Shown here in pieces: positions 23,021-43,275 of a stretch of 64,000 nucleotides of DNA. The stretch lies in assembly GCA_963575745.1 (NCBI GenBank), contig CAUYUJ010000212.1, positions 1-64,000 of the forward strand, written 5' to 3'. Source of the DNA: Prorocentrum cordatum (taxonomy: Eukaryota). How positions within the stretch are numbered: position 1 is the first letter of the stretch; every line of letters starts with the position of its first letter. Below the pieces are notes generated by a model. That model was not told the origin of the DNA, made no database searches, and saw nothing but the letters and a program-made list of their open reading frames with translations. The position numbers and the translations under genes were made by a program.

Positions 23021-23218
23021 TGGGTCCCCGTGGCCCCCGACTCCCCTGGACCTCCAAGGAGCCCACGAAACTGGCGACAGTTGCGCAGTTCGCAGCCACC
23101 CAGGGAGCAGCCAGCTCTCGTCTGGGTCCGCGTGGCCCCCGACTCCACTGGACCTCCAAGGAGCCCACGAAACTGGCGACAATTGCGCAGTTCGCAGCCA
23201 CCCAAGGAGCAGCCAGCT
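23021..23218. repeat. 102-bp tandem repeat, target of the copia insertion; it resumes at 39102-39160
   Basis: Units start at 23021 and 23123. The second unit is cut at ...GCCAGCT and continues as CAGCTCTCGTCTGGGTCCG after the element. Confidence 0.9.
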
Positions 23219-23470
23219 AGTCGAAAGTGAGCCTGGTAGCTCAAATATGGCATATAGCCTGGCAAATTGCATCCATCGCTCTGCTGTGAAGGTACAGTAT
23301 GAGGGGTGGATGAGTAAGATCGGATAAGATCGATGTAATGATCTTTCCAGCACATAGCGAACACTCGCGGTGTCCGGGCAAATAGGGCGCGCGTGCCTTG
23401 GGCCAATGGCAACGGCGCGCGAGCTATGCTCCCGATACTGTAACATCTCCCAAAGAGCTACCCTTAAAGT
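23219..23470 (-). repeat. 3' LTR (252 bp)
   Basis: Matches 38850-39101 at 248/252 positions by manual comparison. Confidence 0.95.
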
Positions 23471-23840
23471 CGGGAGGGGAGGAGACGGAGAGCATAGTCG
23501 CACGCAAAGATCGCGCGCACGACTGTTTGCAAAGAAAAGAAAACAGTGCGTACAGTCTGGTCAAACACCAGACTGTAAGGCGAGTTTCCTCGCAAAGTAT
23601 TTCACGCAAATACAGGACAGCCCCTTCAAACAATGAAGGGCTATCGGCTCAGTTAGAGGTAAGCCAAAATTAGGCCATACCTCACCAAGCAAATGTGCAT
23701 TAAGGCAAAGAGCCTGAGTTGTAAGAAGCCGGCTCGTTGCCAGGCGTGAAATATAAGGCTCGTTTCCGAGCAGCTAAAGGGGCGCCTTTATAGTAGGCGC
23801 CCGTGCTGGCAAACTGGACCGCGAGGGCAACAAGGACAGA

Positions 23841-26800
23841 CTAAAATTGATTAGACTTAGGTTTGTCTCTGTCCTCGGGACCCCGAAAGGGAACAAATTG
23901 TTTCACGTCATACTTAAATGACTGAGTGCCTGACATCACTTCCAGAAGCAGCTCCCGATCGATGCTTCCCTTGTATGCCCATCTGCGGTCATATCCCTAG
24001 TATCACACCATTGCACGTTATGTACTATACCTATATCCATGAGCTCACGTATCCAGCTGATATGTCCAAGCAGAGTCCGTTCTGTAGGTATTTTGAGATC
24101 CCTGCTTGATAAAGATTTGCAGACGGACTCGGCGTCTATGGTAAGAGAGACTTTAATAGCAGGGCCTCCAACTTCACGCATGTCTCGTAGTTGTCGTGGA
24201 GTCAAAGCCCCTGCCTTAAGCTCGTGGAGAGTAATGAGCGTAGGGTAACACTCATCAAGGTTATGTGCGGCTGCAAGTGCCTCTGCAGCATAACTGGACC
24301 TCACCTGTAATCGGTGTGATTTGCATAGTCCGTCACAGAGGTGAACGACGGACTTGCCTTGGGGCGAGTTTCCTCGCCGTAGTACGTTGGCCCCGCGCAT
24401 GCCGTAGCCCTTGGTCTCGTCATCCTCCTCCCCGGTAAGCTTCCGATACCCCGAATCGCTATGGATGTCAACTTCATTCGTCGGCTTCATCCGAGGGAAG
24501 GTGATACGTTTCGGACTGCTGATCAGCTTTCGCGCCACAGCATTCAAACGTCTGACTTGCAGATTGGTGGGCTCTTGAACTTTCTGAAGAGAGACCACAT
24601 ATGCCATAAGCCAGATTTGGGTAAGAAGGGCATAGGCGAGGGCTCCTCGCAGGCTGACGAACATGTCGGTAATGAGTTTCGTGGCTTTGGCGTCGGCCGC
24701 CGCTCCTGTCAGTTCTAGGTGTGTGATAGGTCGTAGTTGTTTAATACACTCGTCCTGGTCCATGATCACATCTCCCTGATCATTCTTAGTGTAGCGAACG
24801 GCGCAGTTCGTATATGTGTGCTTGTTGAGCTTGCATTTGCCAAATACCTTTTCGACACGTTGTACATAGTCGTCTATATTTTTCTCTAGACCTGTCATGT
24901 TAATATCATCGACATGTTTTGCCGTCAGAAGGTCTTGGCTGAATTCAAATTCAGGATCGTAGCTGGTCGGTGTAAGTCCTATAGCTCGTGTGGTCGTACG
25001 AAGTTTGAGAGAGAACGCTCTTGGAGCGTCCTTAGTACCCGTTCCTGGTTTGAGGCATCTAAGACAGTGTCGACTTTCGTCGTAGGATGAGAAGCCGGGT
25101 AAGGTACGAAGTACCTGAGCGCTTCCTGGTGGAAGAGTAAAGCAAACCATGCGAGTTTCCTCGCCGGTGGCATGGGCAAGTTCCTCATAGGTCAAACCTT
25201 TTAGGAACGCCTTATCGATATCCATGGATGCTAAGATCCACTCTGGATGACATGCCGCTTCACTTGCCAGGAGTCGTTGGGACTGCCTTCGGGCGGTTCC
25301 CGAGAATGTTTCCACATCAAAAGCCTCAGTATCCATAAATCCACGAAGGACCAGTCTGAGACGAATGGTTTTGACGCTCTCGGTACCCATCTTTACGAAC
25401 TTCCACTTGTATACGTATCTGGAAGTCATGATGTTGGAAGCTTTGGATAAATCGTACATCTCAAAGCATCGGTTATCAATCCAGATTTTGAGCTCAGTAT
25501 ATAAGGCTTCACTAACCTCCTTTGGATGTGCTGCTATGTCGGCTTTGGTCAGTAGATCATCTTCTTTGACAACCACAGCACGTTTAGCAGCAAAGGATAC
25601 ATATACTCTCATCGTTGCGACCATATCGGTATCGAGCTGTGCAAGTTGAGTCTGATCCAGCACTATGTTTGACATTTCTGATGTAAAGCATAGTTCAACG
25701 TAAGGACCGTATTCATCACTGTCTAGAAAGTAGCTCTCGTCAGTTGTGTTTGAACAAAGCGATACTAGACAGGACTCACATGATTTCGGCTCGTCTCCGA
25801 GCATATCTGATGATGTAATATCATCTTCGTCCACAAATGCTGAAACCAAAACACATTGGTCGGGCAGCATAGTTGTTGGGACGCAATAAAGATAATCATC
25901 GGTAATCGTCGTAGGATGAAGGTCCATACGTAGCTCGTCGTACCACTCTTCCAGCATCATAGCTTCAATATTGTGTTCCTCATTTTCCTCATAGATTGTC
26001 GACAGACGGCCTTCGCTCGGCGATGAAGCATCTGGTGTGTCTGGAGAAGGCCTGTTTCCAGGCGACTCGTGTTCTCCAGACGTGTTGCTTGGATGCTGAT
26101 ATTTAGCCAAATCGTCGTGAAATCCTAAGGAAGGGACACGTGAAGTCAAGCATTGAATAAGTCTGGAGTGAGTGCTACCAGTGATCTGAGAAATGTGTAA
26201 GCCAGTGCCCACACATTCGTAATAGTGGAACGCCGGGCTGATGTCGTTGTCATAGTGGATCAGCGTAGACCCGGTGGCGTACTTTACTGCAGGTAGGCTT
26301 GACACACTCTTAGCCAATCGAACTGCTACTACATGTTCTACTCGGAAGTAATTTCGTACGAGATACTGTAGTGCTAAGTGTACGCGCGGGTGAAACTTGC
26401 TGTCGTCTGACAGATTAAGGTTTCCCTTGTAATCGGGGATATACCCGAAAACTTTGGCAGGTTTCCCTGCGCTGAGGTGTGCCACATAAGCAAGGACGGT
26501 TTGCATGGCCATATTATCCATGCCAAGTTCCCGTGTGAGGAGACATTCGATGTATAGTGTGTGACGAGCATCAGGATACATCACAATTACCTCACGAGAT
26601 CCTGCCTTGACAACAATATGTCCTCTTTCAGGCACATTTCGGATCACCGGGAATGGGCCATTCCAGCCTCCATGGTCGTCCTTGGTGGCAGTAGGTCGGT
26701 GGTAGTCGACCAAATCCCCTGATGAGTAGAGGCGAGCACCATCAGGAGTCGTCTTAGCCCTAAGAGCCCGATTTGTCTTGGCCACAGCAGTAGCCTGAGT

Positions 26801-28834
26801 TATAGCTTCTAGGCTGACTTCCCTTACACGACGTTCTCGTTCGTGTCCTGAAGTCTCGGGTCCCTTGGGAAAGTCAAGGGTATCGAGATCAGGAAGGAAG
26901 GAGGGCTGACGTCCTGTGTGTGCCTGATATGGCGATACTCCGTTATAAAACGTAAACGCATTAGTAACGAAGATGCCTTCCGCCAATACTCTAGTGAATA
27001 CAACAGGGATGTTGTGTCTATTCAATTCTTCCTCAATCATGTGGAGGACGCCTCTGAGAATGCCGTTTCGTGACTCAATTGAAGTCGCGTGTTGGCCAGG
27101 TGCTCGGATACGAAGTTCCGTGCCCTTATTGGCCATCATGGTTTTAGCGGCATCGTTATTCAGGGCGCCTTCTCCGTCTGAGTATAAAACTTTGAAGGGT
27201 CCGTGATAGGCAATCCAGCAATAGTGGTAGGCGTCGATGATAGCGCCACGTTCTCTGTCGGAAATTTCTAGGCCTGCTGCCAGGCGAATACAACGATCCA
27301 TAATATGAAATATGGTCCGTTTCTTGTAAAACATGAGGTCCATTTCCCCTTCATCGAGCCAGTTACCAGGAAGGCTCACCGATGGTAGCGTTGAGTTTCC
27401 TGGACGTTCCCATGCTCTACATCCCCGACAGGCATCACAGACTTCCTTGATCATGTTCAGTCGAACGTTATCAAGCCCCACCTTTTCGAGGATTAGCCTC
27501 ATCTTTGGATACTTCGCATGATACCATCGCAGATGCAGTTTTCGGAGTTCCTTTTTCACGACATGAGGTTCGTGACTACGGAGACTCTGTAGACTGTGTT
27601 GGATGTCGAATCTCGTCCAGTCGGGTAGTCGTGGAGCCCCAGAGCCGGTGGAGGCAAGAGGGTTCCTTGTAGCTCTCCGTAGTTGGTCCCCTGTGTTAAC
27701 TGCGTCTGGAGGTGGTGGTACGCCTTGTAGACGGCCGCGGCGGGCCGCTACCTGTGGCACTTCGCTAGAAGACGCAGAAGGCGTGTTTCCACGCTCGGGG
27801 GCGTCTCGTAGCATGTCGTAGCTGCTGGCACCGGATGTCGGATCGACGTTGCCGAAGGATCGTGGTCGCGGTGGCCTGGCATGTGCGCCTTGACGGCCAC
27901 CTGAAGCTGAAGCTTGGCCCTCACCAGGTTTAGGTAAGGGTTTCCACCAAGCTGGCACAGTTTTGCCTTCGGGGTCGTGGTCGTCTGGTAGTTTAAATGG
28001 TTCAGCAAAACGACATTTACCAGGTTCGGTATCGAGGTGGTTCTTAACACCCTTGCTTCTCGTAAGATCCCTCTGACATGCTGGACATGGCCAATATACA
28101 GAGATGGAATCATGATATTTACACTGCGTAGGGTCTCTGTTATGGCTCGGACTGTCCTTTCGGACATTGTCGATGCATGCCGGGCAAGTAGCCACCTTTG
28201 GGATGATACGATCACCGATGCGTCTCATACCTTCGCCTGGTTCAGCTTGATCGGGAAGGTCTGTAGGATAAGCATGTGCGGTACTTATAGGCGCGTTTCC
28301 GCGCGTGGTGTCAATGGCTTTCGCCAGATATACAGCTTCCACGAAGGCAGACTGCAGTCGTCGGGTGTATTTTTGTGCCAGTGAAAGCTCGGTATTGCAC
28401 GGTTGTGCGTGCACATGCTGACCGTTACACTTGAGTCGCTCAAAGGGTTTAAGAATTGTCTCGTCGTTGCTGGTGATATTTGTCGGCTTCTTAATATAGT
28501 CACCAGTCGTGTCTTTAAGTCCCGTAGCGCATTGGTCAATGCGTACGGTTGTAATGTGTGGTCGGTTGGCAAGCTTCTTCCATGGAGAAATATCATCTAC
28601 CCATGTTCCTGTAGGTTGTTCGCGTATAAACCACCTCTGAGAGTCATCTTGGGTTACAGCAATTTTACCACAATAAGTTATGTGCGGTAAGTCTTCTTTA
28701 TGGTGCTGTTCCCAAGTGTTGTAGTTGACTTTGTAGTTGTAGTAGGATGGTGGTCCTGTGGTGCGACAGCTGGGTTGCAGTATGGCAACTCGTACGTAGC
28801 ATATAGCAAAGTAATGGTCTATAACCTGCTGCAC
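23841..28834 (-). CDS. pol: Pol: zinc fingers, integrase (HHCC plus DDE), copia-type reverse transcriptase and RNase H; 1-bp deletion near 23971
   Basis: Integrase: LHLRWYH..CDACRGC, MDL, SDGEG, IESRN. RT: SRYVYKWK, RLRLVLRGF, DIDKAFL, KDAPRA, HVDD. RNase H: SDSG, SSYAAE, IDAES, MTADGHT. A frame change restores KGSIDRELLL, ending at TAG 23841. Confidence 0.95.
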
Positions 28835-28955
28835 CGAGGGGTCTCCCAGGTCGACATATGTAGTCTTGCCAAGTTGCCGCCTGAGGAAAGTCCCCTTGAG
28901 AAGGCAAGCTCTGAGATGCCACCCTCACCGCCACAAAGCTCCAACATATCCACGC
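28360..28955 (-). other. C5-cytosine methyltransferase-like domain, split by a 1-bp deletion near 28869
   Basis: ELCGGEGG (motif I-like), QPSC (PC motif IV), REQP (ENV-like) and DQC..G...KKPT. Adding one A restores GGNLDKTTYVDLGDPSVQQ. Confidence 0.7.
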
Positions 28956-30270
28956 AGTTGTTATGGCCATAGCATAGTGTAGCAACTATGCTGTATATGT
29001 TAGCGTGTGTGTCGGGCATAGATGTGGGGAGGGTAAGGAACAGGTCACCGTCCTCGTCGGAGCTTACCAGCTCAACAGGGACGTCAGTACTCCAGGTTGC
29101 CATAAGATCCTGTCCGAGTCCTGACAAGTCGTCGCCGCAATCGTCGCTTCCGTCTTCAACGTGCTTTTTAATGCGGCGAGGCTTGATGCCTGCTTCCTTT
29201 TCGGCTTTGAGCCTCTCCTTCTGTTTTATACGCGATTCAGTGGGTAAAGCTTGCTCGTCTTGTTCGTCGGTCTGTGTACTCATTGTCGTTGTTGAATGGG
29301 TACATGCGTCAATCGCCAGAGTCGGGGGGGGGAGAGAACAGTCATCTATGATGACGCGTCGATGTTTCTGTGGTGATTGAGTCGGCTCGTTTCCGAGCAA
29401 GACCGCTTCCTCGGGTTGCCAATACAACCAAGTACTGATGTTGGCAACCCCTGCAGGTGATGGTGCATGCCAATCATATCCTGTTGGTTGATCGGTAACT
29501 GAGATATCCTGAATAATCGCATTGGTATCCAGGTTGATTGTTACACGTCGGATGACTTCAGACCATTTTGGTCCTCCTTTATTAGTCGTCACGTAGTGAC
29601 GGATGTTATGGTCTGTACGTGTATACGTATTTAAGTATACGGGCACGTTTCCGTGCGTGGTGGTGCTCCCCAGGATGTTGTCGTTCAAGTGACGGATGAG
29701 TGTAGTACGTGTCTGAGCTCGCCATTCAGCATGCCGTACTGTATGGCTTGATGATGCTACCTGCATATAAGTACCGCTTGGTGTACTGTCTTGCATATTG
29801 AACGGAATACCGAAATGACGCAAACGCATCCGTATTACTGGCAACTTTAGATCTTCCAGAGTATCACGTACTGGAGATAACTTCCAAACATGTCCTGGGG
29901 GACCAAATATTATGATCTTCATGCGGAGTTTCTTGGCTTTTATCAATAGGTTCTGGATGCGTGACCAATGTGGGGCCACTCTCTTTCCTGGAGTTCTTAC
30001 GTACCAGTCACCCGGAGTACTGATCCATATGAGAGTGTAATCTCCACTGATCACCGCACCTAGGTAGTTTGTGCCCACGCTTGTCATAAGTTCGTTGTGG
30101 GAAATACGATCACAAATAGAACCTCGTGTGCGGAGGTCGGCACATGCCTCCCTCGTACCTTCAATGACAAAAGCCCTCTTACTAAGGCAGGTTACCCCGC
30201 TGTCCTTGTTACCCCCCGGCTTTTCAGCCAACAGGCAAGACGACGAGGGGGCGACGTCGCCCTGCCATCT
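28819..30270 (-). CDS. Polyprotein segment with a degenerate MTase-like domain, a GPKW..V.RRVT motif and the start of a DNMT-like domain
   Basis: Same frame as ORF 30271..35028, separated only by TGA at 30271-30273; it ends with MLELCGGEGG. Confidence 0.7.
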   Translation of the reverse strand, partial: RWQGDVAPSSSCLLAEKPGGNKDSGVTCLSKRAFVIEGTREACADLRTRGSICDRISHNELMTSVGTNYLGAVISGDYTLIWISTPGDWYVRTPGKRVAPHWSRIQNLLIKAKKLRMKIIIFGPPGHVWKLSPVRDTLEDLKLPVIRMRLRHFGIPFNMQDSTPSGTYMQVASSSHTVRHAEWRAQTRTTLIRHLNDNILGSTTTHGNVPVYLNTYTRTDHNIRHYVTTNKGGPKWSEVIRRVTINLDTNAIIQDISVTDQPTGYDWHAPSPAGVANISTWLYWQPEEAVLLGNEPTQSPQKHRRVIIDDCSLPPPTLAIDACTHSTTTMSTQTDEQDEQALPTESRIKQKERLKAEKEAGIKPRRIKKHVEDGSDDCGDDLSGLGQDLMATWSTDVPVELVSSDEDGDLFLTLPTSMPDTHANIYSIVATLCYGHNNCVDMLELCGGEGGISELAFSRGLSSGGNLARLHMSTWETPRCSRL

Positions 30271-33200
30271 TCAAGATGAAGAAGATGTGCCTACAATATC
30301 TGCCAGCATCTGGGCTTCCCTCAGATGCTGGAGCTCAGCACTGCAGCGCGCCGTGGCCTCAGAGGCGGATTGCTCCGCAAATGCTGTCAGCATCGATGGA
30401 TTATCAATCAGCTGTTTCAGCACGCCTTTGGACCTAGCGTCGCTGACCGTATGCAATTCACGATTAGTGTATCCCATCACTATTTTACGGCGGGACTGTA
30501 CTGCGTCCATGGGTACACTACCACCATGCAGGGCCAGTGTCCTGGCAACAAAACAATCGAACGTCTCGAGATCGTCGATGTTGTCGCCTCGCATGGTGGC
30601 CTTGGCGAGCGTCTCCATCAACCCCTGGGGCAGGTTTCCCTGCAATTGGTTGCGCTCCTGCGCTGGGGTCGGCTCGCCTGTCAGCACTGTCTGGAAGGAT
30701 GTGCTGCTTGAGCTCGAAGCGGGTTGCCCCGCAGCTCCAAAACAATCACACCTGATCGACAGATGCCCTGACGGCAACTTTGTCGTCGGCATGATTTTGG
30801 AGCCTTCTGGGAGCTCCATTTTGACCTGCCCCTTACCAGGGAATATCAGCTTTTCCTGGCCTCGTTCAAGCACGATGATCGTGCGTTTGTCCTGCATACT
30901 ATCGAGACCTAGGATGGCTGGCAGGTCCTTGCCACAGCCTGACACAATGTTCGTCTTGTATGAATCGAGTTGGGCCGACCCCTGGTACTCGCAGGCAATA
31001 CTGAATGTGCCTACGGTATCCGCTGGGGCCGACCCTTCTCCCACTCCGTTGATATTCAAACGAGAGCGGGGCTCGAACGTACAAGTACGGCCATGTGCCT
31101 CGGCAGCCTGGACGAACTTACGGCTCGTGTTCTCGCCCATGATGTTGATCTTCGAACCGACGTCGATGAGTATGGAATTTCCACCATCATCCAAGAACGT
31201 CTTACTCGGCTGCTTGATGTGCACAGTTTCTGAAGTGTCGGCTGTGTCGGTAGGCGGGTTTCCCCGCGGCACAGTCGTACTCCCTGGCGGGTTACCCCGC
31301 ATGACACTGGCATGCGACTCGCTCTCGGCCATGCGTGCCAGGTCAATGTACTGGAAGCACGACACGTGCTGGGCGTGATCGCCACGCTCCTCCCGCCAGT
31401 TGGCATACTCATCACGTATGCTCATATACTGCTCGCGGGTCGTGCGCCTCATCAACGTTAGGTACGAGTGAAGGGCGATGTCTTGCAGCCCCTCGTTCGT
31501 GATGTGATCCCGGTACCGCAGCCACTCCTCGAACTCCTCATTCGTCGCTGAGATATTGACGGCCCTGGCTGCTGTTGCTGCTGACGCCACTGAGGATTCT
31601 GATAAGTCTAGCGACGGACTATCAGTTTCAGGATTGTTGGCATCCAGCATAAATGTTGTGCGCGTATTATCCATCTGATTCTGGAAATGTCGTACACGCA
31701 ATTCACGCAGCTGGTCAGGGCCCAGTGACATCTCAGCCTCACCTCCACTCTGGGGAGACATCTGAGGAGTATCATGCAGGTTTCCCTGCTGAGGCGCCGT
31801 CATCGGGATAAGCTGATCAAAATATCCCGTTTCCATAGGCGGCCTTACCTCTTCAGGCAGGTGTCCCTGCTGTTGTGACGGAACTGTCTGCATAGCTAGC
31901 ATCCTGGACGTCATCTCCTCCACCATGCTCCTGAGCTCCCGCAGCTCTCTCGCTGACTGCTCAGGAGTCTGACTAAAGGAGCCGGTCCATGGGAAGGATG
32001 ATGCTATAATGCCAGGTGCTCGACAGATAGCACATGATGGCTGCTGGGGATCTCCCTCACGCTGATTTGTAACGTGGCCCACCACATTAGAATTCCAGCA
32101 TCCCTCGTGGAATAGGCGATTGCACCTCAGGCGGTAAACGCTATCCCTGGGCTGAAATTCTTCGAGGCATACCGCACAGGTATCTTCCATCCCAGTAAAG
32201 ACTTCTACGTCTGCTGCCCTGGGATATACCCGCCGCTGCCTCTCCAGTACCGTCTCGGAGGGCATGAAGGCTGATGGGGGTGTCCCCGTTGGATTCAGCA
32301 CTTCCTGCACTTCGACATTTGGCATGGAAGTGGTAGGAGTCACGGCGGGCGAGTTTCCTCGCAAAGGTGAGCCCCTGTTCCTCACCACATCAAGTGCAGC
32401 TGCACGTGACTGATCCCGTACGCTTTGCACCGCCTGCCTTCTCCTGAAGCATGCCTGCTGAGTGTGGTGCGTCTGCCTGATGTAGTCAGGCACGCCCCTA
32501 CTGCCAGACGATATTGAATGGGCAGTGGGCTGGACAACCACCTCTGTTGATGTTGGTGAAGGCGTGAAGGCCATGTGCGGGCACATGGAATGGTCACTGC
32601 AGCGCACATTAGTGAGGTTATGCATCTGATCCGCCAATTCACGAACAAATTTGTTCGGAACCCTTGACCCATCAGGGTATAATGGCGGGTTCATCTGCGC
32701 TGGTGGTGGCCTCTGGCCCTGAGACATGCTCGGATGGGCATTGAACGCCGGGATAAAGGCTCGTTGCCGAGCAGGATCCCGTGGGTTGGGACCCTCAGGC
32801 TCCCAGGACCAGGCTGGCCTCCACCTCTGCCCACTTGGGTGAGGCAGATTATGGCTCTGCACCTGCTGCACCGCGGCCGCCACTCTTGAGCGATAGTCGT
32901 CAGGTACACCCGCCCTGTGGTGGCTTGGTGTGCCAGGCAGGTTTCCCTGCTGACTCGTTGGCGTGCCGGGCGGCATCATGTTGAGGAGGGCTGTGCTGTG
33001 TTCAGCCCTAGCAGCAGCTATCCTCTCCATGAGAGTGCCGTTTGTGGCAGGGCGGACAGGTGTCCCGAATGGGGATTGTGCCGGTGGTGTGCCCAATGGA
33101 GTCATGCCCCTTGGAGTGTGCATGCTCTGAGTAGGGCTTCCATGCATTGGTTCAAACCGAGCAGGTCCGCTTGTAGGCAGGTTTCCCTGCATGGCCTGAC

Positions 33201-35028
33201 GATTTCTCGTAGCCATAGCGGACATTGCTCCCTGGCCTGCGGCCCAGGGATCCTGCTGGTATAACCTGTCCGCCAGCTGTTCTACCTGGTCAGGGTTCAG
33301 CGCGGCTGCGATCTGATCCAGGTCCGAGGTACTGATGGCCTGCCAAGACACGGCACTAGGCCCTTGGCTTGGGGCACGGCTTGGAGCCGCGCTCCCGGCC
33401 TCACTCTCGGTAATCATGAAGATCCGATAGATCTCAGGCTGGTTTCCCAGCTGGGTAGGGCTGTAGTGGTCCCCAACTTCTCTGTGGAGGTAGCCCATAG
33501 GGGGGTCAACGCCCCCTTGGTCTCGGGACCACTGGTACTTAACGCTGGAAGTACCAACGTCAGCCCACCTGTCAGGAGCAGACATCGTTGCGACAGAGAC
33601 TCGCGCATGGCGGCTCCCCAGATACTCTGGATTACGCCATTGCCTTCCTGTGGTCAGGTCCTCTACATGAGAGATGCAATACGGTTCAATGATACCGTTA
33701 TCTCCCTCGGACAAGAGGACTCCGTTATCGGACCAACAGAACTTCATACCATCTTGTATGGCCTTACGCCAATCTACGAAGATGATGATGTCTGAGTCTG
33801 GGTCCCACCCACTGTTCACGGCACGGCGGCGAACTGTCGGCACGAAGTGAATGCGCGACCGGCCTGTCCCCTTTTTCTTCGTGTTATGCTCAGGTCTACA
33901 GGACAGGCCGTGCCACATAATCCCTTCGAAGGCGTGCCATCGAGTGCCATGCATAGCAACATCGGGGTATGGGGCCGGTCTCCCGGCAGGTTGGTCGCAC
34001 AGCACAATGTAGCTGTACAGCGACCACGGAGCTTTCAATTCCCATGAATGCCCCTGAGAGGCGCGGACGAAGATAGCGGGCTCTCCGGAGTCCCGCATCA
34101 ACACCTTGAACTGTAGGCGCTGTTTTTCTTCTCCGTCTGGTTCGCGGACATGAACAACTGCCATCATGATGGCTGCTAGTTGGTCAACCGAGCGCCTACA
34201 TAGATGCTCGTTGATGATCTTGGCCTCGTCATATATTGGATTATACCCAGCGTGTCTTGATTGACCTGTGTTCCACGGATAACGGTCCACGAGTTCCACT
34301 AGGTTAACCCAACCATCATGATCATCGAAAGATTCCAAGCGCCACACAGGATTGTGTTGCTTGTCTGGCGCATGTCTGCATATCCTGCTGAGAGCTTTGC
34401 TCAGCTGTTTGAGAATAGCATTGGATGTGGGAAGGATTCCAGCTTTCCTGCATTCCTTCATGAATGTCTCATCCACCGAGCGTATCGGTGGGAGCTTCCG
34501 AAGCGCAAGTCTATCCCTGATCACATTTGGAGTCCCACTAGTGAAGGACGTGTCACCTGGGTGGTGCAGCTGAACCACTGGCGGGTTTCCCCGCATCGGA
34601 ACCTCTGTTGCTGAAGAGGCTGCGGCTCCAGAAGAGGAGGAAGCTGCGGCGGCAGCGCCTGGCGGGTTTCCCCGCGGAGATGCGCGACTGGCGCTGCCCC
34701 TGATCTTCGGCACCCAGGTACCCCTCGACATAGCACCTTCATCGGACCTCCTGGAACGAGCCGCCACAGGCGAAGCTGGCGCAGGTGCATACCCACTGCG
34801 CTCGAAAGCTGCCGCCTTTTTCGCAATGGAGCTGCTGCGACTAGGCGGGCGTCTTCGTTCCTCCATAGGGTCCTGAGGTTGCTGCTTGGGCACAGACGCT
34901 TGTGTAGGAGTTGTGCCAATCGGCGGCCTCGGAGTTTCAGTTCGAGGCACCTCCATCTGCACGTCTGGCCCAGGGTCCTGAGGGCTCGTCTCGGTTTCGG
35001 CACCGAGGACGAGGTGTCGGGGGTTCAC
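30271..35028 (-). CDS. Polyprotein segment with Tpt1/KptA-like 2'-phosphotransferase, RING-like finger and aspartic protease
   Basis: 1585-aa ORF. Tpt1 motifs at about 33665-34410, RING at about 32021-32178, protease LIDVGS...ILGLD at about 30900-31175. Confidence 0.85.
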   Translation of the reverse strand: MNPRHLVLGAETETSPQDPGPDVQMEVPRTETPRPPIGTTPTQASVPKQQPQDPMEERRRPPSRSSSIAKKAAAFERSGYAPAPASPVAARSRRSDEGAMSRGTWVPKIRGSASRASPRGNPPGAAAAASSSSGAAASSATEVPMRGNPPVVQLHHPGDTSFTSGTPNVIRDRLALRKLPPIRSVDETFMKECRKAGILPTSNAILKQLSKALSRICRHAPDKQHNPVWRLESFDDHDGWVNLVELVDRYPWNTGQSRHAGYNPIYDEAKIINEHLCRRSVDQLAAIMMAVVHVREPDGEEKQRLQFKVLMRDSGEPAIFVRASQGHSWELKAPWSLYSYIVLCDQPAGRPAPYPDVAMHGTRWHAFEGIMWHGLSCRPEHNTKKKGTGRSRIHFVPTVRRRAVNSGWDPDSDIIIFVDWRKAIQDGMKFCWSDNGVLLSEGDNGIIEPYCISHVEDLTTGRQWRNPEYLGSRHARVSVATMSAPDRWADVGTSSVKYQWSRDQGGVDPPMGYLHREVGDHYSPTQLGNQPEIYRIFMITESEAGSAAPSRAPSQGPSAVSWQAISTSDLDQIAAALNPDQVEQLADRLYQQDPWAAGQGAMSAMATRNRQAMQGNLPTSGPARFEPMHGSPTQSMHTPRGMTPLGTPPAQSPFGTPVRPATNGTLMERIAAARAEHSTALLNMMPPGTPTSQQGNLPGTPSHHRAGVPDDYRSRVAAAVQQVQSHNLPHPSGQRWRPAWSWEPEGPNPRDPARQRAFIPAFNAHPSMSQGQRPPPAQMNPPLYPDGSRVPNKFVRELADQMHNLTNVRCSDHSMCPHMAFTPSPTSTEVVVQPTAHSISSGSRGVPDYIRQTHHTQQACFRRRQAVQSVRDQSRAAALDVVRNRGSPLRGNSPAVTPTTSMPNVEVQEVLNPTGTPPSAFMPSETVLERQRRVYPRAADVEVFTGMEDTCAVCLEEFQPRDSVYRLRCNRLFHEGCWNSNVVGHVTNQREGDPQQPSCAICRAPGIIASSFPWTGSFSQTPEQSARELRELRSMVEEMTSRMLAMQTVPSQQQGHLPEEVRPPMETGYFDQLIPMTAPQQGNLHDTPQMSPQSGGEAEMSLGPDQLRELRVRHFQNQMDNTRTTFMLDANNPETDSPSLDLSESSVASAATAARAVNISATNEEFEEWLRYRDHITNEGLQDIALHSYLTLMRRTTREQYMSIRDEYANWREERGDHAQHVSCFQYIDLARMAESESHASVMRGNPPGSTTVPRGNPPTDTADTSETVHIKQPSKTFLDDGGNSILIDVGSKINIMGENTSRKFVQAAEAHGRTCTFEPRSRLNINGVGEGSAPADTVGTFSIACEYQGSAQLDSYKTNIVSGCGKDLPAILGLDSMQDKRTIIVLERGQEKLIFPGKGQVKMELPEGSKIMPTTKLPSGHLSIRCDCFGAAGQPASSSSSTSFQTVLTGEPTPAQERNQLQGNLPQGLMETLAKATMRGDNIDDLETFDCFVARTLALHGGSVPMDAVQSRRKIVMGYTNRELHTVSDARSKGVLKQLIDNPSMLTAFAEQSASEATARCSAELQHLREAQMLADIVGTSSSS
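33665..34410 (-). other. Tpt1/KptA-family RNA 2'-phosphotransferase domain
   Basis: Ordered motifs LSKALSRICRH, DGWV, KQR, VRASQGHS, HGT, GLS, RIHF and DGMKF..SDNGVLL.EG..G.I.P. The Arg-His-Arg-Arg catalytic set appears present. Confidence 0.9.
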
Positions 35029-38000
35029 TTTTGGCCTTCGAAGTTAGTGGGAGTGGGGGCCTCGTAGCCCTCTTCATGTAGATCTTACTAGAATCCTCCA
35101 ACATCTTGCGAGTTGCCTCGCGAGTGCGGTCTTCTGCTGTCCGCATACGCTCCTCATCCTCCGCCACACGTTGAGCCTTTATATCATCCTTGATTGTCGG
35201 TTCTGGTTGTTGGGACTGGCTAGAGACGCCAGGCGAGTTTCCTCGCATACTAGGAAGACTGAAGAGCGCGTCTTTCTCTTCCTGGGTCATGGCTACCAGT
35301 CCCCTTGGAACCGGGGTAGGCTTTTCTTCTTCGTTCGGATCCAAGTGGCTCAAGATCCCGAGACGACGATTCACTTCTGCAATTTCTTCCTGTGCCATCG
35401 GGATAAGTTGCGGATGGCCCTCTTTATGAGGGGTTTTGCCCCTGTTGGGGCTCAGGCCTTCGTTGTTGCCAACGGGGCATCCTGGCCTGTGGTTCTGGAA
35501 CGGCCGGGAACAAGGTCCGCATGCTGCGTGAGGCCTATACTGCTTGCGCGCCGCGATAATATCTCGCAACTGAGTCCGCGCTTCTTGAATTTCAGGGCGG
35601 CGGATATTTGTTGCAAGCTGATAGCCTCCGCGGATGGCCTTGCCATCACTGTCCCTATAGGCAGGGTTGCCCTTGCCGAAGGCCGAGTGTTCCCCTTTTC
35701 GGCGTCTTGGGTCGTTGTACGGAAGTAGCTGGCCACCTCTCCTGAGAGCGTGTTCTTTTGGGCCAGCCTGCCTCCACTCACGAGGAAGTCGAGCCTGTGG
35801 ATGTGGCTCTTCTCTGACGCGCGTATGGGAGCGAGATCTTCTGGTGTTCTCATCAGAGGAAGCTGCCGAAGCAGCAGGAGCGGCACCCGGTGGAGGTGCC
35901 TGAGGAGGCTCCTGTGCGATCCCAGATGGATCGTCCGATGGAGGCAGGTCTCCCTGCTGGGTGGAGCTCGGCGCAAATGGCGCTTGTGCCGATGGTGATG
36001 ATGATTCAGACTCATCAGGATCGAAGTCAACCTCTTCCTCACCATTCACGTCCATCATGAGGATGGTGACGTCATCCTCATCTAACCCGCAACCATCGCC
36101 TTCTACTTCTTCTGATGTCGAACTACCGATGATGATGGCCATTGGCGTATCTGGTACAGGCAGGTTTCCCTGCATAGCCGGCGTCTGTGCGTCGCTCGGC
36201 TGTCCCGGAGTAGGAGGCACTGTTGTCGGCTCAGGCTCGTTGCCGAGCACAGGCTGCCCAGCAATGTTACGCATGGCCGTATGGTTTGGCCTCATTCCCA
36301 CCGCCTGGAGACCCCATCCTGGCGGAGGAAGATCATGACCGCGCATAGCAATAGCCATTTCTAGAGCATTACGCCATCTACCACGGGAGTATATCAAGTG
36401 TCTCTGCACGTCCTGAGGATGCACGCTGTCAATGAGAGTCAGAGCTGCCAACAACAGCTCTGAGCTACCGCAAGCATCAGTATCCTGTTCTGTCATAATG
36501 TCAGCTTCGATATGTTCTTGACTCTCAGGATAACCAGTTATAAGTATCTCATGCATCCTCATGAGGGTCTGCAAAAGGGTGCGTGGTCCATATTCGCCTG
36601 GAGCAAGCGAACCAGGAGGTATGAACGGAGTATCTGGTTCGCCTGCAATGAAGGCCTGAACAAATGCCTGAGACTCCATTTCAATTAAGTCTTCAGTGGT
36701 CTGGGGATATTCTCCCATCAGAGACGGCCTGTTTCCAGGCGGGATTTCGGGCGGAGGTTCGAGGTTCCGTTGAACCTCGGAAGGCGAAGCCTCTATAGTG
36801 GTGTCCTCGTCGTCGCTCTCGTAGGCCATGATGTTGCCTGGGTTCCCGAACATCCAGTCGTAGAAAGAAAGAGGCTGGTTTCCCAGCGTACCGTGTTCCA
36901 CGGGAGTAAGCTCGTTACTGCCCATAACGAACCGGCGGACGTACTCGAGGTAGTACGCGTACAATCCATGACCATACGCTTCGAGCTCGTCGACGTTGTC
37001 CATGCCAACAACCCAAGTGAAAAATATCTGCTCCATAGCCTCAAAGTCCTGGAGGCTCAGATATTCAATGGATGGTTCACTTGAGCCAAAATGGACTTCG
37101 GTCGACCTGCCCTTTCCATTTCCCTTCACTGGACAATCTCGCACAAGATGATCGGAACTACCACATTCATGGCATTTGAGAACCTGGCCGTCTCTACCTC
37201 GCGGGTTTCCCCGCCTACCTTTGCCTTTTCCTGAGGTCTCTCTACGGCCTTTACCACGGCCTTTTCCCCCAAAGAATATCTCATCATGTTGTTCATCTGA
37301 GAGCCTCTGGAGAAATGCCGCGATACCTCGTCCGTTCAACCTCCGACGACCTCGCTTGCCTTTACCCTTTCCTTTAAAACTTCTACGTATCCTCCTTCTA
37401 ACACGACGCACTGGTTTTCGTGTGAACCTCCTCCACCTTCGTTTAGCCTGTTGTAATAACCAGAACAAATGCTCAGCACGCTGATTGTCGTTATCCATAT
37501 TCATAATATCTGACCAATCTAAAGCTTCAACACCATCTGATGATATAGTGTCTGTATGGGTGCCGGAGTCGAAATCCTCGTCTCCCAAGTAGGTGGATAC
37601 ACCGTCGGTTAGGGGGTTTGATTCCCCCCACAAAGAACGGTGTGGTTGTGGTTATCTAGAAGGAGGGCTGGTTGCCCAGCTTGGTTGTGATCGATCCCCT
37701 GCTAATAAAGCAGTGGATTCTCCTGGGTCATCGGCCCATACGCTTGAGGGCCCGTTTCCAGGCTGGGCTTCAGTGGTCAAGGTAGTGTAGAAATTTCCAC
37801 TACCAGATCCCCTTCCCCTTCCAAACACAGATCCTATGTTACCAGGAGCCCGTTCGGATAGGTGGCCTATCGAACGCATCCTCTCCAGCAACTCATCATA
37901 TTGTTGTTGTGTTCGGGGCATTTGGTGATTGAGTGGCTGTAAGAGTTGCATGGCTCGCTGGTTGCCGACGCCTAAGGCGCGGAATAGGATAGTGGTTAGC

Positions 38001-38884
38001 AGTTGGAAGTTGGGAAGGTCGAATCCCACCGATTGTGCCTCCAGTCGGGCCATTTCGAATCGGGTAAGGGTGACATCGATTCGTTCCCCGTGAGGCACGT
38101 GGAAGTCGATGAGTTGTGTGCCGGAAGTGAGCTGTCGCTCTTCCAGGCGTTCGAACTTCATGCTTAGGAGGAACATGATGTAGGTCACTGGGTCTGTGTG
38201 GACCCCATCGATGTCAGCACCATAGTTGATAATGTCAGGCGGTACCCTCATGGCGAGTGTCCTCGCTAGGCCACCTAGGCCGCGTTGTATTGCGGCCGCT
38301 TGGGCCTGTGGCGTCATACGTCCGCTTGTAACGTTGAGCCATGCGTTGACCTCGTAGATGTACTCACGAAAAGGTACATTACCTTGAGGGTCCCAATATG
38401 GGCCATGTGTTTGCCCATCGGTGCTGTTTTCTCCACGACGCATGTGTCCGATTGCTGCCCCCAGCGCGAACCATATAATAGCGAAAACGACTAGCCCGAG
38501 AATGTGTAACGAAGGACGGTTATGATGCGCGTTGTCGCGCTGGGGTAGCGCCTTGTCGAGTCTTCGAGGCGCTCTGTCTGGCGGGTCTCCCCGCCCCTGC
38601 TTCAAGTATTGCGCTGTTGGCTCGTTGCCGAGCGGTTGGTGGTAACGCACTGATGAAGCGTATACGGTACCAGTCTGGTCGTCTAGACGTCGTACCTCTC
38701 GTGTTGCTTCTTGCTCTTGGATAGATCCTCGTAAACGTACTGGGAGTGGTGGCGCAGAGTGGTAGGTAGTCACGAAGATCGTGCCGAAGAATATGAGGCT
38801 AAGAAAAGCAAGAGCTGACCACACGAGAGTGCGGCCAGCTCCGCTACCAAGTCGACAGTGAGCCTGGTAGCTCAAATATGGCAT
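34937..38884 (-). CDS. gag: Gag-like polyprotein region: two hydrophobic segments, capsid-like domain, Arg-rich tract and CCHC zinc knuckle; one in-frame TAA at 37652-37654
   Basis: ORFs 37652..39043 and 34937..37633 are in the same frame. There is an in-frame ATG at 38884 inside the LTR and CHECGSSDHLVRDC at about 37131-37175. Confidence 0.8.
38838..38849 (-). promoter_or_regulatory. Primer-binding site, tRNA-iMet type (TGGTAGCGGAGC)
   Basis: Abuts the 5' LTR. TGGTAGC is complementary to the ...GCUACCA 3' end of eukaryotic initiator tRNA, as in the Ty1 PBS. Confidence 0.85.
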
Positions 38885-39101
38885 ATAGCCTGGCAAATTG
38901 CATCCATCGCTCTGCTGTGAAGGTACAGTATGAGGGGTGGATGAGTAAGATAGGATAAGATCGATGTAATGATCTTTCCAGCACATAGCGAACACTCGCA
39001 GTGTCCGGGCAAATAGGGCGCGCGTGCCTTGGGCCAAAGGCAACGGCGCGCGAGCTATGCTCCCGATACTGTAACATCTCCCAAAGAGCTACCCTTAAAG
39101 T
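38850..39101 (-). repeat. 5' LTR (252 bp)
   Basis: Matches 23219-23470 and is followed immediately by the PBS on the minus strand. Confidence 0.95.
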
Positions 39102-43069: not shown

Positions 43070-43160
43070 ATACATCATCATCGCATCATCATTATCATCA
43101 CCACATACCACCACCACACCTCACAACACCACCACCACCACCACCATCATCATCATCACA

Positions 43161-43206
<46 letters not shown>

Positions 43207-43275
43207 CATCATCATAATCATCATACATCCATCATCCATATACATCATCATCTCATCATCAATCATCATAATCAT

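What the first reader, a model, noticed from the sequence alone, without database searches (positions are those of the whole stretch)
23580..38633. Retrotransposon RNA studded with at least 33 covarying GNRA-tetraloop hairpins
Seen: the sense (minus) strand carries the 14-mer GC-NN-G-[GNRA]-C-N'N'-GC at plus-strand starts 23580, 23758, 24364, 25151, 26050, 26457, 27781, 28291, 29385, 29643, 30630, 30719, 31254, 31287, 31776, 32349, 32759, 32937, 33177, 33438, 33974, 34581, 34662, 35233, 35944, 36160, 36235, 36727, 36874, 37201, 37667, 38581 and 38620. G-U wobble versions occur at 30187 and 37750, and a loop variant at 31857. Ten different NN pairs occur (GCAGG, GCGGG, GCGAG, GCTCG, GCCTG, GCGTG, GCGCG, GCACG, GCTGG, GCCGG), each perfectly compensated. 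Loops are GAAA, GCAA, GTAA or GAGA. All copies share one orientation, and they fall in different reading frames (GNLP, AGQP, RQR) and in the 3' UTR. I noticed none outside the element. Known: GNRA tetraloops are stable RNA folds and protein or tertiary-contact sites, and some RNA viruses use multiple dispersed packaging signals. Inference: this is an RNA-level code overlaid on a 15-kb coding region, possibly for Gag-mediated packaging, compaction, export or transcription processivity. I know of no description of such a system in LTR retrotransposons.
Basis: partly seen in the sequence, partly recalled or inferred. Interest (0 to 1): 0.92.

Follow-up and report, generated by a model that had tools for sequence, protein, structure and literature searches.

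The report
GNRA hairpin array in giant retrotransposon
A 16-kb Copia-like retrotransposon of a marine protist carries about forty small, perfectly paired GNRA-tetraloop hairpins on its coding strand, a trait shared with covarying stems by a whole clade of related elements, and this looks like an undescribed RNA signal written over the protein code.

Summary
The pattern GCNNG-GNRA-CN'N'GC occurs 35 times on the minus strand and 0 times on the plus strand of the 64-kb window. All 35 lie inside one LTR retrotransposon at 23219-39102. Shuffles that keep the protein sequence give 1.25 on average, with a maximum of 5.

Of 78 sense-strand GGNRAC cores, 36 have all four outer pairs complementary, against 1 of 25 on the antisense strand. 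Four hairpins lie in untranslated leader or trailer. Most of the rest encode x-G-N/D-x'-P, where x and x' are complementary codons.

Thirty-three related metagenome loci show the same sense-only hairpins: 23 of 314 cores fully paired, against 2 of 170 on the antisense strand. They recur at some of the same sites, and stems and loops differ by lineage. All loci with two or more hairpins fall in one well-supported clade.

The structure is therefore real and under selection. My best guess, at about 0.45, is multivalent binding sites for the element's basic, zinc-knuckle Gag, used for genome selection and assembly. No RNA data were available. My literature searches found no description of this.

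The parts
23219..39102 (-). Copia-like LTR retrotransposon, 15,884 bp, sense strand = minus strand
   Evidence: LTR pair; ORFs and Pfam domains; relatives
38850..39102 (-). 5' LTR (253 bp)
   Evidence: local alignment with 23219-23471, ungapped; 97% identity over 260 nt
23219..23471 (-). 3' LTR (253 bp)
38831..38849 (-). primer-binding site TGGTAGCGGAGC..., directly after the 5' LTR
   Evidence: sequence; the likeness to Copia initiator-tRNA PBS is recalled
38441..38443 (-). first in-frame ATG downstream of the LTR (putative gag start); homologues begin to align about here
37121..37177 (-). CCHC zinc knuckle of Gag, preceded by an arginine/lysine-rich stretch
   Evidence: Pfam PF00098, E 9e-4, below the curated cut-off; sequence
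24842..25471 (-). RVT_2 reverse transcriptase
   Evidence: PF07727, E 2.5e-8
38620..38633 (-). hairpin GCTCG-GCAA-CGAGC, 5' leader
38581..38594 (-). hairpin GCGGG-GAGA-CCCGC, 5' leader, 39 nt from the previous one
37667..37680 (-). hairpin GCTGG-GCAA-CCAGC
37201..37214 (-). hairpin GCGGG-GAAA-CCCGC (peptide RGNPR in the conserved Gag basic region)
36874..36887 (-). hairpin GCTGG-GAAA-CCAGC
36727..36740 (-). hairpin GCCTG-GAAA-CAGGC
36235..36248 (-). hairpin GCTCG-GCAA-CGAGC
36160..36173 (-). hairpin GCAGG-GAAA-CCTGC
35944..35957 (-). hairpin GCAGG-GAGA-CCTGC
35233..35246 (-). hairpin GCGAG-GAAA-CTCGC
34662..34675 (-). hairpin GCGGG-GAAA-CCCGC
34581..34594 (-). hairpin GCGGG-GAAA-CCCGC
33974..33987 (-). 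hairpin GCCGG-GAGA-CCGGC
33438..33451 (-). hairpin GCTGG-GAAA-CCAGC
33177..33190 (-). hairpin GCAGG-GAAA-CCTGC
32937..32950 (-). hairpin GCAGG-GAAA-CCTGC
32759..32772 (-). hairpin GCTCG-GCAA-CGAGC
32349..32362 (-). hairpin GCGAG-GAAA-CTCGC
31776..31789 (-). hairpin GCAGG-GAAA-CCTGC
31287..31300 (-). hairpin GCGGG-GTAA-CCCGC, doublet with 31254 (33 nt apart)
31254..31267 (-). hairpin GCGGG-GAAA-CCCGC
30719..30732 (-). hairpin GCGGG-GCAA-CCCGC
30630..30643 (-). hairpin GCAGG-GAAA-CCTGC
29643..29656 (-). hairpin GCACG-GAAA-CGTGC (HGNVP; P0001 has HGDVP in the same context)
29385..29398 (-). hairpin GCTCG-GAAA-CGAGC
28291..28304 (-). hairpin GCGCG-GAAA-CGCGC (RGNAP; aligned to RGDTP, RGNAP and HGNV in relatives)
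27781..27794 (-). hairpin GCGTG-GAAA-CACGC (RGNTP; aligned to HGDVP in P0001 and P0008)
26457..26470 (-). hairpin GCAGG-GAAA-CCTGC, other frame (AGKPA)
26050..26063 (-). hairpin GCCTG-GAAA-CAGGC (PGNRP)
25151..25164 (-). hairpin GCGAG-GAAA-CTCGC inside the conserved RT motif (GEETR), other frame
24364..24377 (-). hairpin GCGAG-GAAA-CTCGC; family hot spot at pol ~1516
23758..23771 (-). hairpin GCTCG-GAAA-CGAGC, 3' untranslated region
23580..23593 (-). hairpin GCGAG-GAAA-CTCGC, 3' untranslated region
37750..37763 (-). variant GCCTG-GAAA-CGGGC (one G.U)
30187..30200 (-). variant GCGGG-GTAA-CCTGC (one G.U)
38253..38266 (-). variant GCGAG-GACA-CTCGC (GACA loop); L025 has a hairpin at the aligned site
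31857..31870 (-). variant GCAGG-GACA-CCTGC
30533..30546 (-). variant GCCAG-GACA-CTGGC
35461..35474 (-). variant CGTTG-GCAA-CAACG (perfect, other outer pairs)

Best explanation
SHOWN. The sense strand of this retrotransposon, and of a clade of its relatives, carries dozens of copies of one small structured motif. The motif is a 5-bp stem closed by 5'G-C3', a GNRA tetraloop and, in this element, an unpaired C after the stem: GCNNG-GNRA-CN'N'GC-C. Pairing is kept by compensated changes, both among copies and at shared sites in different lineages. This holds whatever the reading frame, and also in untranslated parts.

INFERRED (about 0.9). The selected form is the genomic or messenger RNA. It is the only single strand that always exists in the sense orientation, and the purine at loop position 3 is the signature of RNA GNRA loops.

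INFERRED (about 0.45, my best guess for mechanism). Each hairpin is a binding site for an element-encoded RNA-binding protein, most likely the arginine/lysine-rich, single-CCHC-knuckle part of Gag. About forty sites spread over a 16-kb RNA would mark it as 'self', nucleate Gag along its length and promote selective packaging and condensation into the virus-like particle. A doublet sits in the 5' leader between the PBS and the gag start, where retroviral packaging signals lie. Lineage-specific stems and loops would then be the result of each lineage's reader and sites evolving together.
For: Numbers, strand bias and chance controls.

Predicted folding: 30 of 35 hairpins form with probability above 0.5 in a 214-nt context, and the isolated hairpins have dG of -7.0 to -9.3 kcal/mol.

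Motif features beyond mere pairing:
- The closing pair is 5'G-C3' in nearly all copies.
- Base +15 is C in 30 of 35, including the four non-coding copies. Base -1 is G in only 4 of 35, so the stem stays at 5 bp.
- Conserved loop, closure and 3' C point to a reader that sees sequence, not only stability.

Position: two hairpins lie in the 5' leader between the PBS and the first ATG, and two in the 3' UTR. 3'-UTR or leader copies also occur in L009, L011, L014 and L001. Spacing is somewhat more even than random: CV 0.73 against 0.96, with 2.4% of random sets as low.

Relatives:
- 23 of 314 sense cores are fully paired, against 2 of 170 antisense, over 33 loci.
- Shared sites carry different compensated stems: pol ~1041 in 6 of 14 covering loci, pol ~1516 in 3 of 25.
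- All rows with two or more hairpins lie in one clade with 100/100 support.

Lineage-specific identity:
- L011 has TCACG in all its copies, and L009, L010, L004 and L005 have GCACG/GCATG.
- P0015 has PGNRI seven times, and P0008 has H-G-N/D-V six times.
- P0001 has GD in 7 of 7 hairpin peptides, against 3 of 26 in the window (Fisher p = 2.8e-5). Four of the five P0001 sites that the alignment covers match window hairpins.

Gag has a long basic stretch and a CCHC knuckle.

From established knowledge (recalled): retroviral NC knuckles and arginine-rich peptides bind small G-containing tetraloop or GNRA-like hairpins.
Against: - No binding, packaging or RNA-structure data exist, and no RNA run held the element.
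- Outgroup elements keep a homologous basic/CCHC Gag region (L025, 47% identity) yet have almost no hairpins. So the hairpins are not an obligatory partner of that domain.
- Hairpin density varies from 0 to about 2.6 per kb within the clade.
- Single-transition near-misses are as often A.C (32) as G.U (31) on the sense strand, against 10 and 11 on the antisense strand. G.U is therefore not preferentially tolerated, and this adds nothing for RNA over single-stranded DNA.
- In L010 three copies share a 36-nt unit, and in L011 about 22 nt are shared. Duplication or conversion therefore contributes to the pattern in those lineages.
Confidence: 0.45

Rival explanations
1. The hairpins are selected RNA elements that serve another step than Gag-mediated packaging. 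Candidates are binding of a host protein for export, stability or translation; protection of a 16-kb transcript from processing; reverse-transcriptase pausing that promotes template switching between co-packaged RNAs; or tetraloop-helix contacts that compact or dimerise the RNA.
For: All the structural and comparative evidence fits equally well. A deletion variant in run X3 joins 31244 to 34578, next to two identical hairpins at 31254 and 34581, with 39 other letters in between. This is compatible with switching at hairpins. Outgroups share the Gag basic region without hairpins.
Against: Pausing or stability alone does not explain the fixed G-C closure, the GNRA loop and the 3' C. The classical GAAA receptor halves are not enriched: CCTAAG 2 sense against 3 antisense, TATGG 22 against 20. 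A host-factor site would not be expected to change stem and loop lineage by lineage.
Confidence: 0.22
2. The functional form is single-stranded DNA made during reverse transcription. This could be plus-strand DNA with GNRA loops, or minus-strand cDNA carrying the complementary hairpins with TYNC loops. It would be read by a nuclease, primase, deaminase or the integrase.
For: Every perfect hairpin also exists in the complementary strand. A.C and G.U near-misses are equally common, as expected if wobble pairs give no advantage. The tract before the 3' LTR is pyrimidine-rich on the sense strand, not a polypurine tract, so plus-strand priming may be unusual in this element.
Against: A purine at loop position 3 is the hallmark of RNA GNRA loops (recalled structural knowledge). 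It is kept in 35 of 38 GCNNG-class copies with a GNNA loop in the window. Hairpins in the leader and the 3' UTR suit an RNA signal. No known LTR-element step uses dozens of internal DNA hairpins.
Confidence: 0.1
3. The hairpins are by-products of a duplicative or conversion-like process, for example reverse-transcriptase slippage or template switching that copies a short palindromic cassette. They would be tolerated in variable linkers and have no function of their own.
For: L010 has a 36-nt unit at three sites 2.0-2.3 kb apart, and L011 has a shared unit of about 22 nt. Doublets 30-51 nt apart occur in the window, L010 and L011. P0001 has one extra hairpin peptide inserted relative to the window. 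Stems are uniform within some lineages. 26 of 33 copies share one frame.
Against: In the window the flanks of the 35 copies are unrelated: 27% identity against 25% for random pairs. Ten stem types are all perfectly compensated. Copies sit inside conserved RT and Gag motifs in other frames. The motif is limited to one strand. Shared sites carry different stems in different lineages. Simple copying predicts identical copies, not covariation.
Confidence: 0.08
4. The hairpins are sites of RNA modification or editing. For example, loop A-to-I editing would read as GAAA to GAGA and recode Asn to Asp.
For: P0001 has Asp at all 7 hairpin peptides where the window mostly has Asn. Loops within L011 and L009 differ only by A/G at loop positions 2 and 3 on constant stems. 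Part of the P0001 cluster comes from a transcriptome.
Against: P0001 is only 78% identical to the window, so it is another lineage, not an edited copy. GAGA loops also occur in the window's own sequence. Known adenosine deaminases do not target 4-nt loops on 5-bp stems (recalled). No matched DNA and RNA data were available.
Confidence: 0.05
5. The signal is a peptide motif, x-G-N/D-x-P, for example a protease site or linker, and the hairpin is incidental.
For: 26 of 33 copies encode that peptide in one frame.
Against: With the protein sequence kept and synonymous codons shuffled, only 1.25 hairpins remain on average. Seven copies use other frames, and four lie outside coding sequence. The first and fourth residues are always a pair encoded by complementary codons.
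Confidence: 0.02

Closest known systems
Multiple dispersed packaging signals of single-stranded RNA viruses (MS2, parechovirus and others). Sources: PMC6281560, highlights and abstract seen in the search listing; PMC4751978, abstract start seen in the listing.
   Same: Many short stem-loops spread through coding sequence share a small loop motif on variable stems. They are thought to bind coat protein co-operatively and so select and fold the genome.
   Different: Those signals are degenerate and were mostly found by SELEX or CLIP. Here the copies are near-perfect 14-15-mers with strict GNRA loops and a fixed closing pair, in an LTR retrotransposon, and binding has not been tested.
Dispersed RGAG stem-loops of the hepatitis B virus pregenome (PMC7612645, abstract start seen in the listing).
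   Same: It is a reverse-transcribing element whose RNA carries several stem-loops with a purine-rich four-letter loop motif, bound by a core protein with an arginine-rich domain.
   Different: HBV has few sites and loose stems. It is a different loop motif in a different virus family. No covariation across a clade has been reported to my knowledge.
Retroviral psi stem-loops with G-rich tetraloops bound by NC zinc knuckles, such as the HIV-1 SL3 GGAG loop (recalled; a review, PMC7599994, was seen by title only).
   Same: The window element has two hairpins in exactly that place.
   Different: Retroviruses have a handful of sites confined to the leader. Here about 40 sites run through the whole 16 kb, 3' UTR included.
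Phage lambda and P22 boxB hairpins bound by the arginine-rich N peptide (recalled).
   Same: A 5-bp G+C-rich stem carries a loop that adopts a GNRA fold and is read by an arginine-rich peptide. Gag here has a long arginine-rich stretch.
   Different: boxB has a five-letter loop, occurs once or twice per operon and acts in antitermination, not in a retroelement.
Palindromic repeats inserted in frame in protein genes: Rickettsia RPE (recalled) and the bacterial dRS3/NTS hairpin repeats of scan note e1-818799.
   Same: Short hairpin-forming units are translated as part of proteins, preferentially in variable loops.
   Different: Those are selfish repeats of 27-150 nt with conserved full-length sequence, in both orientations, spread over a genome. 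Here the unit is 15 nt with unrelated flanks, one orientation, confined to one retrotransposon clade, and with covarying stems.

Membership tests
GNRA tetraloop hairpin (RNA structural motif) | Four-letter loop with G at position 1, purine at 3 and A at 4 | tested here: met
   All 35 copies were found by that definition: GAAA 24, GCAA 6, GAGA 4, GTAA 1. Only 3 further copies have GACA.
GNRA tetraloop hairpin (RNA structural motif) | Loop closed by a Watson-Crick helix that is kept by compensatory change | tested here: met
   36 of 78 cores have 4 of 4 outer pairs. Covariation 0.357 against 0.157, with 0 of 500 shuffles reaching it. There are ten stem types.
GNRA tetraloop hairpin (RNA structural motif) | Forms in RNA | not testable with these tools
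   Prediction only: 30 of 35 form with p > 0.5. No RNA run was available.
Ty1/Copia LTR retrotransposon | Two direct LTRs flanking an internal region, with a PBS next to the 5' LTR | tested here: met
   253-bp LTRs, 97% identical over 260 nt, and PBS TGGTAGCGGAGC.
Ty1/Copia LTR retrotransposon | Domain order gag - protease - integrase - RT (RVT_2) - RNase H | tested here: met
   CCHC in gag; RVT_2 at pol residues 1152-1361; an HHCC-like integrase finger at about residue 464, upstream of RT. Protease and RNase H were not confirmed by a profile.
Ty1/Copia LTR retrotransposon | Polypurine tract before the 3' LTR and a 5-bp target duplication | tested here: inconclusive
   The tract before the 3' LTR is pyrimidine-rich on the sense strand. 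A possible AGCT duplication of 4 bp is seen.
Dispersed packaging signals (packaging-signal-mediated assembly) | Many stem-loops with a shared loop motif dispersed along the genome | tested here: met
   35 canonical copies plus about 6 variants over 15 kb.
Dispersed packaging signals (packaging-signal-mediated assembly) | Sequence-specific binding by the cognate capsid protein | not testable with these tools
   No RNA-protein tool was available. Gag has a basic stretch and a CCHC knuckle.
Dispersed packaging signals (packaging-signal-mediated assembly) | Needed for selective encapsidation or assembly | not testable with these tools
   This needs experiments.
boxB / N-peptide type hairpin | Five-letter loop folding as GNRA with one extruded base | tested here: not met
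   The loops are four letters in all 35 copies.
In-frame selfish palindromic repeats (RPE / REP-like) | Copies share sequence over their whole length, flanks of the core included | tested here: not met
   In the window, flank identity is 27% against 25% for random pairs. It is met only in L010 (36 nt) and L011 (about 22 nt).
In-frame selfish palindromic repeats (RPE / REP-like) | Both orientations, and spread through unrelated genes | tested here: not met
   0 plus-strand hits and 0 hits outside the element in the window. Relatives have 23 sense and 2 antisense. The host genome as a whole could not be searched.

The most novel reading that the evidence does not exclude
The hairpins are a multi-copy, lineage-specific RNA 'barcode'. 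Each retrotransposon lineage marks its own 16-kb RNA at about forty sites with a hairpin whose stem, loop and 3' neighbour are matched to its own Gag. Competing lineages and cellular RNAs would then be excluded from its particles. This would be a kin-recognition code overlaid on a protein code, evolving by concerted compensatory change.
Probability: 0.25. Interest if true: 0.9.

Novelty: new variant of a known kind. Interest (0 to 1): 0.8.

Why it matters
How LTR retrotransposons pick their own RNA for packaging is poorly understood outside a few yeast and retroviral models. No case is known to me of a retroelement whose whole coding region is studded with one strict, covarying hairpin.

If the hairpins are Gag sites, this element gives an unusually clean system. 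It offers about 40 near-identical sites, natural compensatory variants and sister lineages with different loop and stem rules. These could be used to test multivalent packaging signals, the co-evolution of an RNA signal with its reader, and how far a protein code can be bent to carry a second code.

It also gives a simple sequence signature for finding and classifying this clade of giant Copia-like elements in marine protist genomes and metagenomes.

Tried and rejected
- **Whole genome of the window:** none is held, so the motif could not be counted genome-wide.
- **Expression:** no RNA holder was listed for the element. The four runs laid are contigs and cannot show RNA ends, strand or editing.
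- **Differences between the window copy and the contigs:** none of the 40 best-supported differences falls in the 35 hairpins. Only about 1.2 would be expected by chance, so this tells nothing, and 1858 further differences were not shown.
- **G.U against A.C near-misses as an RNA-versus-DNA test:** 31 against 32 on the sense strand, 11 against 10 on the antisense strand. This is inconclusive, and the copies are not independent.
- **Tetraloop-receptor halves:** not enriched.
- **Rfam gathering search of the window:** 0 matches.
- **IMG/VR scan for relatives:** none found.
- **Link to the Tpt1 domain:** rejected as an explanation. Relatives with hairpins (L004, L009, L010) align to the middle ORF only around the RING finger and residues ~1258-1452, not over the Tpt1 part.
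- **Conserved domain upstream of integrase as a cytosine methyltransferase:** my idea from motif look-alikes. Pfam gave nothing. The PDB profile search gave 0 hits. The AlphaFold model had mean pLDDT 62.9. Foldseek found nothing with E below 0.001, and its best hits were RNase H-like or resolvase at E 0.1-0.3. VIA gave Z of 5.6 or less for Rossmann-like and RuvC-like chains, below the tool's noise level. The domain remains unresolved.
- **Host identification from the rest of the window:** 12 long ORFs gave only one RING hit.
- **First shuffle script:** timed out and was re-run in lighter form.

Full report
**1. The observation.**

A direct scan for GC-NN-G-GNRA-C-N'N'-GC, with NN and N'N' complementary, finds 35 copies on the minus strand and none on the plus strand of the 64-kb window. 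All 35 lie between 23580 and 38633.
- The two G.U versions (30187, 37750) and the GACA loop version (31857) are there. Two further GACA copies lie at 38253 and 30533.

The excess over chance is very large.
- Shuffling synonymous codons while keeping every amino acid leaves a mean of 1.25 copies (maximum 5 in 300 shuffles), against 33 in the ORF segments.
- First-order Markov sequences give 0.02 copies, against 35.
- A test that does not select on pairing gives the same answer. Of 78 GGNRAC cores on the sense strand of the element, 36 have all four outer positions complementary, where about 0.3 is expected. On the antisense strand it is 1 of 25.
- On all 77 cores within the LTR-bounded element, the covariation score is 0.357 against 0.157 +/- 0.025 in shuffles, reached by 0 of 500 shuffles, and it collapses when partners are slid.
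- Ordinary 5-bp/4-nt hairpins occur at about 2 per kb outside the element: 96 in 47.8 kb. Inside it there are 63, of which 35 are this one class.

**2. What carries the hairpins.**

The region is a Copia-like LTR retrotransposon on the minus strand, at 23219-39102.
- Two 253-bp LTRs align without gaps.
- A primer-binding site, TGGTAGCGGAGC, follows the 5' LTR.
- The long open frames encode a Gag with a long arginine/lysine stretch and one CCHC knuckle, a middle part with a Tpt1/KptA domain and a RING finger, an integrase-like zinc finger, and an RVT_2 reverse transcriptase downstream of it.

The window copy is a decayed one. Two in-frame stops and two frame changes break what is one frame in relatives such as P0001. 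Contigs of four sequencing runs mostly carry extra bases at two of these points.

The family is highly repeated. Between 682 and 29,890 contig pieces per run lie on it.

The host is a marine protist that I cannot name.
- The closest protein cluster, at 78% identity, holds fragments labelled Pyramimonas sp..
- Relatives at 35% identity carry Symbiodiniaceae and Prorocentrum labels.
- The rest of the window gave no informative gene.

**3. Anatomy of the motif.**

- The unit is 15 letters. Base +15 is C in 30 of 35 copies, including the four non-coding ones. Base -1 is G in only 4 of 35, so the helix stays at 5 bp.
- The closing pair is 5'G-C3' in nearly all GNRA hairpins of the element.
- Flanks are otherwise unrelated: 27% identity against 25% for random pairs.
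- As RNA the hairpins have dG of -7.0 to -9.3 kcal/mol. 30 of 35 are predicted to form with probability above 0.5 in a 214-nt context, with a median of 0.96.
- 26 of 33 copies inside open frames use one frame, giving x-G-N/D-x'-P with x and x' encoded by complementary codons. Four use a second frame and three the third.
- Some of the copies in the other two frames sit inside conserved protein motifs, for example GEETR in the reverse transcriptase.
- Two copies (38620, 38581) lie between the PBS and the first in-frame ATG at 38443, that is, in the probable 5' leader. Two more (23758, 23580) lie in the 3' UTR.
- Spacing is mildly more even than random: CV 0.73 against 0.96, with 2.4% of random sets as low. 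Doublets 33 and 39 nt apart occur.

**4. Relatives.**

A scan of metagenome contigs with the pol alignment returned 33 loci, 117 kb in all, with 33-64% identity in the best segment.
- On their sense strands, 23 of 314 GGNRAC cores are fully paired, where about 1.2 is expected. On the antisense strands it is 2 of 170. Ten of the 33 loci have at least one perfect copy.
- With GNNA loops and one G.U allowed, the counts are 46 sense and 5 antisense.
- Some sites are shared with the window but carry other, compensated stems. At pol ~1041, 6 of 14 covering loci have a hairpin: GCGAG, GCATG (twice), TCACG, GCAAG and ATGTG, against the window's GCTCG. At pol ~1516 it is 3 of 25. At most other window sites it is 0 or 1 of the covering loci. 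Most window sites in gag and the middle ORF lie in stretches that do not align at all.
- A tree was built from 351 pol columns of 25 loci plus the window. Eight loci with fewer than 250 aligned residues were left out. Every row with two or more hairpins falls in one 17-row clade with 100/100 support. Eleven of its 17 rows have at least one hairpin. The nine rows outside it have none, or a single imperfect one.

Stems and loops are lineage-specific.
- L011 has TCACG in all its copies.
- L009, L010, L004 and L005 have GCACG or GCATG. L008 and L014 have GCGCG. L030 has GCGA loops in all three copies.
- The same shows in proteins without DNA. P0015 has PGNRI seven times, P0008 has H-G-N/D-V six times, and P0020 has HGNVA three times.
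- P0001, 78% identical to the window, has Asp at 7 of 7 hairpin peptides (GNGA loops). The window has Asp at 3 of 26 (Fisher p = 2.8e-5). Four of the five P0001 sites covered by alignment A1 match window hairpins, two of them with changed but still complementary codons.

**5. What it most likely is.**

Shown: a strand-specific, structure-constrained motif that is conserved across a clade and independent of reading frame and coding status. It is not a peptide motif. In the window it is not a family of recently copied repeats.

Inferred: the RNA is the selected form.
- The orientation is that of the transcript.
- The loop obeys the RNA GNRA rule.
- The sites include the leader and the 3' UTR.

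The fixed closure, loop and 3' C argue for a reader of sequence as well as shape. The lineage-specific re-writing of many sites argues for a reader that evolves with the element.

The most economical candidate is Gag, with its arginine-rich stretch and CCHC knuckle. This rests on analogy with retroviral NC binding to tetraloops and arginine-rich peptide binding to GNRA-like hairpins (recalled), and with the dispersed packaging signals of RNA viruses and of the HBV pregenome (abstracts only). I put this at about 0.45.

Points against it:
- There are no binding or RNA data.
- The outgroup element L025 keeps a homologous Gag basic/CCHC region but has almost no hairpins.
- Hairpin density varies widely within the clade.
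- A.C and G.U near-misses are equally frequent.
- L010 and L011 carry cassette-like copies (36 nt and about 22 nt), which shows that duplication or conversion also shapes the pattern.

**6. Rivals.**

- Another RNA-level role, such as a host factor, template switching or compaction: 0.22.
- A single-stranded DNA form during reverse transcription: 0.10. The pyrimidine-rich tract in the place of a polypurine tract keeps this open.
- A non-functional by-product of duplication: 0.08.
- Modification or editing sites: 0.05.
- A peptide motif: 0.02.

Evidence for and against each is given in the Rival explanations section.

**7. Novelty.**

- Full-text searches for dinoflagellate + retrotransposon + GNRA returned 0 papers.
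- 'GNRA tetraloop' + 'LTR retrotransposon' returned 2 papers, judged unrelated from title and abstract in the listing.
- A broader search on retrotransposon, tetraloop, packaging signal, Gag and hairpins listed only retroviral and Ty1/Ty3 work (listing only).
- The paper on retrotransposon-borne methyltransferases in Symbiodinium has no occurrence of 'hairpin', 'stem-loop' or 'secondary structure' (term search of the text).
- These searches cover open-access text only.
- The scan's own notes hold nothing on this DNA. They hold only an unrelated bacterial hairpin repeat.

I class the finding as a new variant of a known kind (cis-acting RNA hairpin signals of reverse-transcribing or RNA elements). 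It has an unusually strict and numerous form, and a concerted, lineage-specific evolution that I have not seen described.

Noticed in passing
window 33703-34407 (-): The retrotransposon's middle ORF contains a Tpt1/KptA RNA 2'-phosphotransferase domain (PF01885, E 1.7e-22). Relatives L004, L009, L010 and L025 do not align over this part. A search for Tpt1/KptA plus retrotransposon listed no paper on such a fusion (listing only).
   Followed up: partly
window 32020-32184 (-): A RING finger lies inside the element's polyprotein (PF13639/PF17123, E about 5e-5, just under the curated cut-off). This stretch does align in relatives L004, L009, L010 and L025.
   Followed up: partly
window 23472-23495 (-): The tract just upstream of the 3' LTR is pyrimidine-rich on the sense strand (CTCTCCGTCTCCTCCCCTCCC), where a polypurine tract is expected.
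   Followed up: no
window 28300-29500 (-); L004:2229-3500: A conserved domain of about 300 residues lies upstream of the integrase and has no Pfam or PDB sequence match. The AlphaFold model has pLDDT 62.9. Fold searches give only weak Rossmann-like or RuvC/RNase H-like matches (E at least 0.1; Z at most 5.6).
   Followed up: partly
window 31244 / 34578: One contig of run X3 joins 31244 to 34578, skipping 3333 nt that include the Tpt1 and RING parts, with 39 other letters in between. Both ends lie next to identical hairpins at 31254 and 34581.
   Followed up: no
window 28868, 34990, 35011, 23970: Many contigs of the four runs carry one to four extra bases at these places relative to the window. 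The window copy therefore has private frame changes. It also has in-frame stops at 37652 and 30268-30270.
   Followed up: partly
L010:3703, 5971, 8005; L011 (eight sites): In L010 three hairpins share a 36-nt unit (11 + 14 + 11 nt) at sites 2.0-2.3 kb apart. In L011 the copies share about 22 nt. This differs from the window, where flanks are unrelated.
   Followed up: partly
L007, L009, L024, L025: Several metagenome contigs run from pol straight into gag, and L025 holds more than one unit length. This suggests tandem, circular or LTR-collapsed assemblies of the element.
   Followed up: no
window 40415-40926 and 43076-44500: Long arrays of 9-15-nt periodic G+C-rich repeats lie on the flank of the element.
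   Followed up: no
window 42355-42845: Five copies of a 62-nt G-rich unit containing GGTTCGAACCGGTAGTGACCCCCCCCGGTTTTCC.
   Followed up: no
window 23014-23217 and 39106-39207: A 102-nt repeat, tandem at 23014-23217, recurs at 77% identity just beyond the other LTR. The element may have inserted into a repeat array.
   Followed up: no
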